Positions 44,001 through 44,887 of a DNA stretch of 64,000 nucleotides are shown in pieces (positions within the stretch are counted from its first letter, which is position 1; each line of letters begins with the position of its first letter). The DNA is taken from assembly GCF_048403405.1 (NCBI RefSeq), contig NZ_CP183129.1. One strand, written 5' to 3'. The DNA is from Escherichia coli (GTDB taxonomy: Bacteria; Pseudomonadota; Gammaproteobacteria; Enterobacterales; Enterobacteriaceae). The position numbers are program-made.

Positions 44001-44887
44001 TATGCTCAAACAGTGGTAGCCCGGAACCGCTAGATAACCCCACGGTGACCAGTACCGCGCGGTTTTCCGCTTTCAGCTGATCCAGGGTAAATGTGTTACC
44101 GATTTCGTTATTGCACTTAATGGTCACGCCCATTTTTTCAATACGGGCGATTTCTGCATCCAGTACTGATTGCGGTAACCGGAATTGCGGAATGCCGTTA
44201 CGCAACCAGCCACCGGGTTGTGCTTCTTTCTCATAGATCGTGACGTCATAACCCTGGTTTGTCAGCGTCACACTGGCCTGCAATCCGGCAGGACCTGCGC
44301 CAATAATGGCGACTTTGCCGAGCGTTTTAGTACCGGGCTGATAAATTTCCATCCCAGTTTGTTGTTCAAAATCAGTAACAAAACGCTGTAAGCGACCGAT
44401 ATCAATGGGAGTATCAACACCGGCACGGGTACAACCGCTTTGGCATAATTTCTCCGTCGGGCACACTCTGGCACAAACGGCACCGAGGGCATTATTTTCA
44501 CGAATTGTCTCGGCAGCGCCTTTAAAATTACGAAAGTAGATTGAGCGAATAAATTTCCCCGGATCGGTCTGTGCCGGGCAAGCCTGACTACAGGGGGCGT
44601 CATGGCATAATAAACAGCGAGAGGCTTCTTTAATCGCCAGTAACGGTGTAAAAGCCAGAGTGAGTTCATCCAGATAATTTTGTTGCGGCATGTGATCTTC
44701 CTTAATGCTATGAGTAATTAAGGCGAACGCTAAATAAATATTGCGTGCTGATATTAAGGCTATGCGCGTGGGGAAATTTAAACTGTGAAAGGATTCACAA
44801 ATAGCTGCGGTTCAGAATGTTATATCCGCAGCTTATTGAGTGAAGTAATAATTATTCTCAATAATTAACAGAAAAGAGAAAATATTA

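What the first reader, a model, noticed from the sequence alone, without database searches (positions are those of the whole stretch)
44784..44833. Perfect CRP consensus half-sites and adjacent hairpin upstream of preT
tgtgaaaggattcaca (44784-44799) matches TGTGA-N6-TCACA exactly and is followed by the hairpin agctgcgg-N15-ccgcagct (44803-44833). Both lie about 100-140 nt upstream of the preT start on the minus strand. This would suggest catabolite control of the dihydropyrimidine dehydrogenase operon.
Basis: seen in the sequence. Interest (0 to 1): 0.25.

Follow-up and report, generated by a model that had tools for sequence, protein, structure and literature searches.

The report
Known CRP site at preTA promoter
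The perfect CRP-binding palindrome upstream of the E. coli dihydropyrimidine dehydrogenase genes preTA is real and strongly conserved, but it is already catalogued and experimentally bound by CRP, so the finding is correct and ordinary.

Summary
TGTGAAAGGATTCACA lies at 44784-44799. An 8-bp-arm, 15-nt-loop inverted repeat lies at 44803-44833. Both sit in the 193-bp yeiS-preT spacer of an E. coli chromosome. The window is reverse-complemented relative to K-12.

The CRP reading is supported but not new. RegulonDB already lists yeiTA (the old name for preTA) as CRP-activated through this box. A genomic SELEX-chip study found a cAMP-CRP peak in this spacer. PhyloScan predicted the site in 2007.

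What I add:
- The box is perfect in 19 orthologous loci from Escherichia, Citrobacter and Pseudocitrobacter.
- An invariant TAGCCT sits 21 nt downstream of the box in 19 of 20 sequences. The known class II CRP promoters mglB and cdd, both in this window, have the same spacing. I therefore infer CRP centred near -41.5, not the catalogued -57.5.

The hairpin is not significant on its own: about 16 comparable repeats are expected by chance in the window. It has one compensatory change in E. albertii, and Citrobacter carries an unrelated hairpin at the same place. It is most likely a 3' stem-loop of the sanA-yeiS transcript. It is not a canonical terminator.

Seen in passing: a Fur-box-like palindrome, a hairpin overlapping the preT Shine-Dalgarno sequence, and an ERIC insertion in the leader in about 40% of E. 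coli genomes.

The parts
44784..44799 (.). CRP box TGTGAATCCTTTCACA (read on the minus strand). Both half-sites are perfect and the centre is at 44791.5.
   Evidence: It is identical, apart from spacer bases, to the RegulonDB/SELEX yeiTA site in K-12. It is perfect in 19 of 19 orthologous loci.
44757..44762 (-). Inferred -10 hexamer TAGCCT of the CRP-dependent preTA promoter.
   Evidence: It is invariant in all 20 sequences and lies 21 nt after the box in 19 of 20, although the spacer sequence diverges. mglB (TATGAT) and cdd (TAAACT) have the same spacing. This is inference; no transcription start was mapped here.
44749..44750 (-). Inferred transcription start. It would put CRP at about -41.5 or -42.5 (class II). 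The RegulonDB value of -57.5 would instead put the start near 44734-44735.
   Evidence: Geometry.
44803..44833 (-). Inverted repeat AGCTGCGG-N15-CCGCAGCT. It starts 52 nt after the yeiS stop codon and ends 3 nt before the CRP box. Probably the 3' stem-loop of the sanA-yeiS mRNA.
   Evidence: -14.4 kcal/mol, z = -4.3. One search shows 100% pairing in 8 Escherichia sequences, with one compensatory C-G to U-A change and one A-U to G-U change. Citrobacter has a non-homologous hairpin at the same place. It fails the terminator criteria.
44838..44863 (-). AT-rich, Fur-box-like palindrome TATTGAGAATAATTATTACTTCACTC.
   Evidence: The K-12 equivalent is the motif listed for preTA under the Fur-2 iModulon by Sastry et al. 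2019 (PMC6892915, supplement 1). Citrobacter has GATAATGGTTACCATT at the aligned position.
44700..44723 (-). Leader hairpin CCTTAAT-N10-ATTAAGG, whose 3' arm overlaps the preT Shine-Dalgarno sequence AAGGAAG (44697-44703).
   Evidence: The arms are conserved in three genera while the loop varies. The fold energy is not exceptional (z = 0.23 for the 71-nt leader).
44733..44734 (-). Empty site in this window where many strains carry an ERIC/IRU insertion in the preTA leader.
   Evidence: Searches show a 125-bp insert in strain B19429. The junction is present in 2191 of 5426 complete E. coli genomes. Inserts of other lengths occur at the same spot in E. albertii, Escherichia sp. MOD1-EC7003 and E. 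coli strain E69.
43453..44691 (-). preT (yeiT) coding sequence, first gene of the regulated preTA operon. preA follows at 42224-43465.
44885..45124 (-). yeiS coding sequence, the upstream gene on the same strand. Its stop codon is at 44885-44887.

Best explanation
The 16-bp palindrome is the cAMP-CRP activator site of the preTA (yeiTA) promoter of E. coli. When glucose is scarce, cAMP-CRP binds it and recruits RNA polymerase to a weak promoter that has no -35 element. The promoter's -10 hexamer is the invariant TAGCCT, 21 nt downstream of the box. That geometry makes it a class II promoter with CRP centred near -41.5 and a start near 44749-44750. CRP thereby couples reductive uracil/thymine catabolism to carbon status, like the neighbouring CRP-dependent pyrimidine-salvage gene cdd.

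The adjacent inverted repeat is not part of the CRP mechanism. It most likely forms an RNA stem-loop at the 3' end of the upstream sanA-yeiS transcript, acting as a weak terminator or a 3'-end stabiliser.

What is shown: the sequence, its conservation, the fixed spacing, CRP binding in vitro (published) and the curated activator status (published). What is inferred: the class II geometry, the start site and the role of the hairpin.
For: - Perfect half-sites are present, with only 2 such matches in 64 kb against 0 in shuffles.
- RegulonDB lists yeiTA as CRP-activated via this box, and a genomic SELEX-chip cAMP-CRP peak lies in the yeiS/yeiTA spacer (PMC3105977).
- PhyloScan predicted the site.
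- The box is perfect in 19 of 19 Escherichia, Citrobacter and Pseudocitrobacter loci, while the flanking sequence diverges.
- TAGCCT is invariant and lies exactly 21 nt from the box in 19 of 20 sequences. The distance from TAGCCT to the ATG varies from 64 to 236 nt.
- The two known class II CRP promoters in this window, mglB and cdd, have the same 21-nt spacing.
- Hairpin: it is stable and its pairing is maintained, with one compensatory change and one wobble change. A non-homologous hairpin occupies the same position in Citrobacter. sanA-yeiS is listed as a transcription unit of its own.
Against: - RegulonDB gives the site as -57.5, not -41.5. I found no mapped transcription start to settle this.
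- I could not read any in vivo crp-mutant expression data. Zheng 2004, Gosset 2004 and Grainger 2005 are not held.
- In the PRECISE ICA compendium preT falls in the Fur-2 iModulon. I found no mention of it under the Crp iModulons in the held files. CRP may therefore not be the main driver of its variation.
- Hairpin: a 15-nt loop and only a short U run fail the terminator criteria. About 16 such repeats are expected by chance. The covariation test is weak, with 77 of 500 shuffles doing as well. Pseudocitrobacter has no hairpin there. The held 3'-end tables contain no yeiS, sanA or preT entry.
Confidence: 0.85

Rival explanations
1. The box is a genuine CRP site but acts as catalogued, centred at -57.5 from a start near 44734-44735. 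It would be a class I-like activator with a -10 element in the variable AT-rich stretch (CATTAT in K-12).
For: RegulonDB entry reproduced in PMC3105977 Table S4. K-12 has CATTAT/TATTAT-like hexamers at a suitable distance.
Against: From established knowledge of CRP promoters, class I sites lie at -61.5, -71.5 and so on, so -57.5 is on the wrong helical face. The would-be -10 region is not conserved even within Escherichia (CGCAAT in this window) and is unrelated in Citrobacter. TAGCCT at the class II distance is invariant.
Confidence: 0.2
2. The inverted repeat at 44803-44833 is a chance palindrome with no function. It persists in Escherichia only because the species are closely related.
For: About 16 such repeats are expected by chance in 64 kb. 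The arms are not conserved in Citrobacter or Pseudocitrobacter. The covariation support is weak. It does not match the terminator criteria.
Against: Five of 15 loop columns vary. The only arm changes, at 3 of 16 columns, all preserve pairing, and one is a double compensatory change. Citrobacter has an independent, stable hairpin at the same position.
Confidence: 0.35
3. The inverted repeat is a DNA operator for a second, dimeric regulator that works with CRP, for example a pyrimidine-responsive factor.
For: It is a symmetric 8-bp-arm palindrome that abuts the CRP box at about -53 to -83 from the inferred start.
Against: A 15-bp spacer is atypical for an operator. The arms are absent in Citrobacter although the CRP box, the -10 element and the Fur-like box are all kept. 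From my own knowledge it resembles no CytR, RutR, PurR or DeoR operator. The G-U-preserving change in strain E69 fits RNA pairing, not DNA symmetry.
Confidence: 0.07
4. The hairpin belongs to the 5' leader of a second, Fur-repressed preTA promoter that lies at the Fur-box-like palindrome upstream.
For: preT is in the Fur-2 iModulon, with a motif at the palindrome. The order Fur-like box, hairpin, CRP box is kept in Escherichia and Citrobacter.
Against: No convincing -35/-10 pair is found on the minus strand there (and by inspection). There is no start-site evidence. A Fur ChIP study (Seo 2014) could not be read.
Confidence: 0.08

Closest known systems
RegulonDB CRP site of yeiTA (preTA) in E. 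coli K-12, also recovered by genomic SELEX-chip (Shimada et al. 2011)
   Same: Same locus and same box. K-12 has TGTGAATCTTTTCACA and the window has TGTGAATCCTTTCACA, a single spacer base difference. The flanks, including the hairpin arms, are also the same.
   Different: Nothing of substance differs. I dispute only the catalogued position: -57.5 in RegulonDB against -41.5 inferred here.
Class II CRP-dependent promoters mglBAC and cdd, both present in this window
   Same: A CRP box is followed after exactly 21 nt by an imperfect -10 hexamer (TATGAT for mglB, TAAACT for cdd, TAGCCT for preT), and there is no -35 element. cdd is also a pyrimidine-catabolic gene.
   Different: cdd has a second CRP site at -91.5/-92.5 and CytR control. 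I found no second CRP half-site pair upstream of preT. The preT -10 hexamer is weaker (3 of 6 matches, although -12T, -11A and -7T are kept).
Intrinsic (Rho-independent) terminator or 3' stabilising stem-loop
   Same: A G+C-rich 8-bp stem (6 G-C pairs) lies 52 nt downstream of a stop codon on the sense strand and is followed by AUUU.
   Different: The loop is 15 nt rather than 3-8 nt, and only 4 U occur in the 8 nt after the stem. The terminator scan does not report it.
ERIC/IRU repeat elements
   Same: The 125-bp insert in other strains contains AAGTAAGTGACTGGGGTGAGCG. I recognise this from my own knowledge as the ERIC2 primer sequence.
   Different: It is absent from this window, which carries the empty site at 44733/44734.

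Membership tests
CRP (cAMP receptor protein) binding site | 16-bp palindrome matching TGTGA-N6-TCACA | tested here: met
   Exact match at 44784-44799.
CRP (cAMP receptor protein) binding site | Conservation of the box in orthologous promoters while the flanks diverge | tested here: met
   Perfect half-sites in 19 of 19 loci from three genera.
CRP (cAMP receptor protein) binding site | Physical binding of cAMP-CRP | not testable with these tools
   Reported in the literature: a genomic SELEX-chip peak in the yeiS/yeiTA spacer (PMC3105977 Table S3).
CRP (cAMP receptor protein) binding site | crp/cAMP-dependent expression of the downstream operon | not testable with these tools
   RegulonDB labels the site 'activator'. 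The primary expression papers could not be read.
Class II CRP-dependent promoter | CRP centred at about -41.5, meaning the -10 hexamer starts 21-22 nt after the 16-bp box and there is no -35 element | tested here: inconclusive
   The geometry is met: TAGCCT lies 21 nt after the box in 19 of 20 sequences, as at mglB and cdd. No start site has been mapped, and RegulonDB states -57.5.
Intrinsic terminator | G+C-rich stem downstream of a gene on the same strand | tested here: met
   8-bp stem with 6 G-C pairs, 52 nt after the yeiS stop codon.
Intrinsic terminator | Short loop (3-8 nt) | tested here: not met
   The loop is 15 nt, and the scan does not report the site.
Intrinsic terminator | U-rich tract (at least 5 U in 8 nt) immediately after the stem | tested here: not met
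   The tail is AUUUGUGA, with 4 U in 8 nt.
Structured RNA family (Rfam) | Match above the gathering score | tested here: not met
   The only hit is sub-threshold, to PrrF at 19.2 bits against a gathering score of 90, E = 0.61.

The most novel reading that the evidence does not exclude
The catalogued architecture of this promoter is inaccurate and incomplete. On this reading it is a class II CRP promoter (-41.5, with TAGCCT as the -10 element) preceded by a Fur box. About 40% of E. coli strains carry an ERIC element inside the preTA leader, between the promoter and a hairpin overlapping the Shine-Dalgarno sequence. That insertion would cause heritable strain-to-strain differences in expression of PreTA, the enzyme that inactivates 5-fluorouracil in the gut.
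Probability: 0.3. Interest if true: 0.35.

Novelty: already known. Interest (0 to 1): 0.1.

Why it matters
PreTA is the bacterial dihydropyrimidine dehydrogenase that gut E. coli use to inactivate the cancer drug 5-fluorouracil (bioRxiv 10.1101/820084). What controls its expression therefore has some practical interest. The CRP site itself adds nothing to what the databases already hold. The modest added value lies in three points:
- phylogenetic evidence that the promoter is class II rather than -57.5;
- the link to a Fur-like box;
- the common ERIC polymorphism in the leader, which could underlie strain differences in drug inactivation.

Tried and rejected
- Primary papers on in vivo CRP dependence or occupancy (Zheng 2004, Gosset 2004, Grainger 2005), on start sites (Thomason 2015) and on Fur ChIP-exo (Seo 2014) are not held.
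- The supplements of the Crp ChIP-exo paper (Latif 2018) that are held list transcription units, not Crp peaks. They mention only the sanA-yeiS unit.
- The 3'-end tables of Adams 2021 have no yeiS, sanA or preT entry, so termination at the hairpin could not be checked.
- Text searches for yeiTA, preTA+Crp, yeiT alone and for preT promoter names returned nothing useful.
- An RpoF (sigma-28) SELEX peak listed inside yeiT is unrelated to this site.
- The sigma-70 consensus scan found no promoter on the minus strand. That is expected for an activator-dependent promoter and was not taken as evidence against one.
- I looked by eye for a second CRP box upstream, which would indicate a cdd-like CytR architecture, and found none.
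- The Rfam PrrF hit is rejected as chance.
- TAATAT, just downstream of TAGCCT, is rejected as the -10 element. It is not conserved (TAAGAA in Citrobacter, GCTAAC in Pseudocitrobacter) and would put CRP at -47.5.
- Conservation of TAGCCTTAA as an anti-Shine-Dalgarno copy is rejected. Pseudocitrobacter keeps TAGCCTT but loses CCTTAAT.

Full report
**1. The observation**

The sequence is as described. TGTGAAAGGATTCACA occupies 44784-44799. AGCTGCGG (44803-44810) and CCGCAGCT (44826-44833) are separated by 15 nt.

The window is E. coli chromosome in the reverse orientation of K-12. On the minus strand it carries sanA (45846-45127), yeiS (45124-44885), preT (44691-43453) and preA (43465-42224). 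The box lies 93-108 nt upstream of the preT ATG and the hairpin 112-142 nt upstream, both inside the 193-bp yeiS-preT spacer.

A perfect TGTGA-N6-TCACA occurs only twice in the 64 kb and never in 100 dinucleotide-preserving shuffles. The other copy, at 38281-38296, is the known mglB CRP site.

The hairpin is statistically unremarkable. I counted 42 perfect inverted repeats with arms of at least 8 bp and loops of 3-20 nt in the window. First-order Markov simulations gave 16 +/- 4.

**2. The CRP site is already known**

Shimada et al. 2011 (PMC3105977) list yeiT, the former name of preT, among the RegulonDB cAMP-CRP targets that their genomic SELEX-chip screen recovered (Table 1).
- Their Table S3 places a peak in the 'yeiS> / >yeiTA' spacer, with the box TGTGAAAAGATTCACA.
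- Their Table S4 reproduces the RegulonDB record 'yeiTA, activator, -57.5...attTGTGAATCTTTTCACAgtttaaatt...'.

The K-12 sequence aligns base for base with the window apart from one spacer base, C instead of T. PhyloScan (PMC1794230, 2007) ranked b2146 among its top-20 Crp predictions.

**3. Conservation**

A scan of one genome per species returned 19 orthologous loci: 6 Escherichia, 11 Citrobacter, 1 metagenome-assembled genome labelled Raoultella whose sequence matches Citrobacter, and 1 Pseudocitrobacter. All 19 keep both half-sites perfect, while the flanking sequence diverges strongly between genera. In C. braakii the order sanA-yeiS-spacer-preT is the same.

**4. Promoter geometry (inference)**

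The only other block that is invariant across all three genera is TAGCCT(T), at window 44762-44757 on the minus strand.
- It starts exactly 21 nt after the box in 19 of 20 sequences and 20 nt after it in one.
- The 21-nt spacer itself differs between genera (GTTTAAATTTCCCCACGCGCA against GAATACTCTTCCTGCAGTGCT).
- The distance from TAGCCT to the ATG ranges from 64 to 236 nt.

The two known class II CRP promoters in this window have the same geometry. mglB has TATGAT at nt 22-27 after its box. cdd has TAAACT at nt 22-27. RegulonDB places these two sites at -41.5 and -42.5.

I therefore infer that preTA has a class II CRP promoter. TAGCCT, which keeps -12T, -11A and -7T, would be the -10 element, CRP would sit near -41.5, and the start would be near 44749-44750.

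The catalogued -57.5 implies a start near 44734-44735. Its -10 element would fall in a stretch that varies within Escherichia and is unrelated in Citrobacter. From established knowledge of CRP activation, -57.5 is also not a productive helical face. I found no mapped start site, so this remains unproven.

**5. The hairpin**

As minus-strand RNA it folds at -14.4 kcal/mol (z = -4.3). Among 8 Escherichia sequences all 8 pairs are kept.
- E. albertii has a compensatory C-G to U-A change.
- Strain E69 has an A-U to G-U change, which is tolerated only in RNA of the sense strand.
- Five of the 15 loop columns vary.
- The shuffle control is weak: 77 of 500 shuffles score as well.

Citrobacter lacks these arms but has an unrelated stable hairpin at the same position, GGGAUUAAUGCUG-N5-CAGCAUUUCCC at -14 to -15 kcal/mol. 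Pseudocitrobacter has none.

The element begins 52 nt after the yeiS stop codon, and sanA-yeiS is treated as a separate transcription unit. It fails two defining features of an intrinsic terminator: the loop is 15 nt, and only 4 U fall in the 8 nt after the stem.

My best reading, at roughly 45%, is a 3' stem-loop of the sanA-yeiS mRNA acting as a leaky terminator or exonuclease block. The other readings are chance (about 35%), a protein operator, and the leader of an upstream promoter. Nothing ties it mechanistically to CRP. Rfam has no family here.

**6. Other features of the spacer**

- *Fur-like box.* The AT-rich palindrome at 44838-44863 is the motif that Sastry et al. 2019 list for preTA under the Fur-2 iModulon, and preT is a member of a Fur iModulon (PMC6892915). 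Citrobacter has GATAATGGTTACCATT at the aligned position.
- *Leader hairpin.* The preT leader carries a conserved hairpin, CCTTAAT-N10-ATTAAGG (44723-44700), whose 3' arm overlaps the Shine-Dalgarno sequence.
- *ERIC insertion.* Many strains carry a 125-bp ERIC element between 44734 and 44733, which is +17 relative to the inferred start. The junction is present in 2191 of 5426 complete E. coli genomes. Inserts of 68-170 bp occupy the same site in other Escherichia lineages.

**7. Verdict**

Interest is low. What remains of interest is the likely mis-stated site position in the catalogue and the ERIC polymorphism in the leader of an operon that matters for 5-fluorouracil inactivation.

Noticed in passing
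window 44733-44734 (empty site); L001 1734-1858 (insert): A 125-bp ERIC/IRU element is inserted in the preTA leader of many strains, between the promoter and the hairpin that overlaps the Shine-Dalgarno sequence. The junction is found in 2191 of 5426 complete E. coli genomes. Inserts of 68, 130 and 170 bp sit at the same spot in E. coli strain E69, E. albertii and Escherichia sp. MOD1-EC7003. This could alter expression of the enzyme that inactivates 5-FU.
   Followed up: partly
window 44838-44863 (minus strand): Fur-box-like AT-rich palindrome TATTGAGAATAATTATTACTTCACTC, just upstream of the hairpin. Sastry et al. 2019 list the K-12 equivalent as the Fur-2 iModulon motif for preTA. Citrobacter has GATAATGGTTACCATT at the aligned position, with AA/TT replaced by GG/CC in the two arms.
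   Followed up: partly
window 44700-44723 (minus strand): Conserved leader hairpin CCTTAAT-N10-ATTAAGG, whose 3' arm overlaps the preT Shine-Dalgarno sequence AAGGAAG. The arms are kept in Escherichia, Citrobacter and Pseudocitrobacter (one C-G to U-G change) while the loop varies. It may be a translational control element. The fold energy is not exceptional.
   Followed up: partly
window 44757-44762 versus the RegulonDB position: RegulonDB gives the CRP site as -57.5. The invariant TAGCCT, at the same 21-nt spacing as at mglB and cdd, argues for -41.5 (class II).
   Followed up: yes
window 38281-38296 and 46940-46955: The window also holds the known class II CRP boxes of mglBAC (perfect, TGTGAGTGATTTCACA) and cdd (TGAGATTCAGATCACA). 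I used both as internal controls for spacing.
   Followed up: yes
window 44836-44865 (plus strand): A sigma-70-like promoter match (TTGAGT-18-AATAAT, 9 of 12) points antisense into yeiS and overlaps the Fur-like palindrome. The number of such matches in the region is no higher than in shuffles.
   Followed up: no
E. coli population, window 44500-45200: The yeiS-preT spacer exists as two diverged alleles in E. coli, a window-like type and a K-12-like type. With the 701-bp query, about 1456 genomes match at only 90-95% identity. Both alleles keep the CRP box and the hairpin arms intact.
   Followed up: partly
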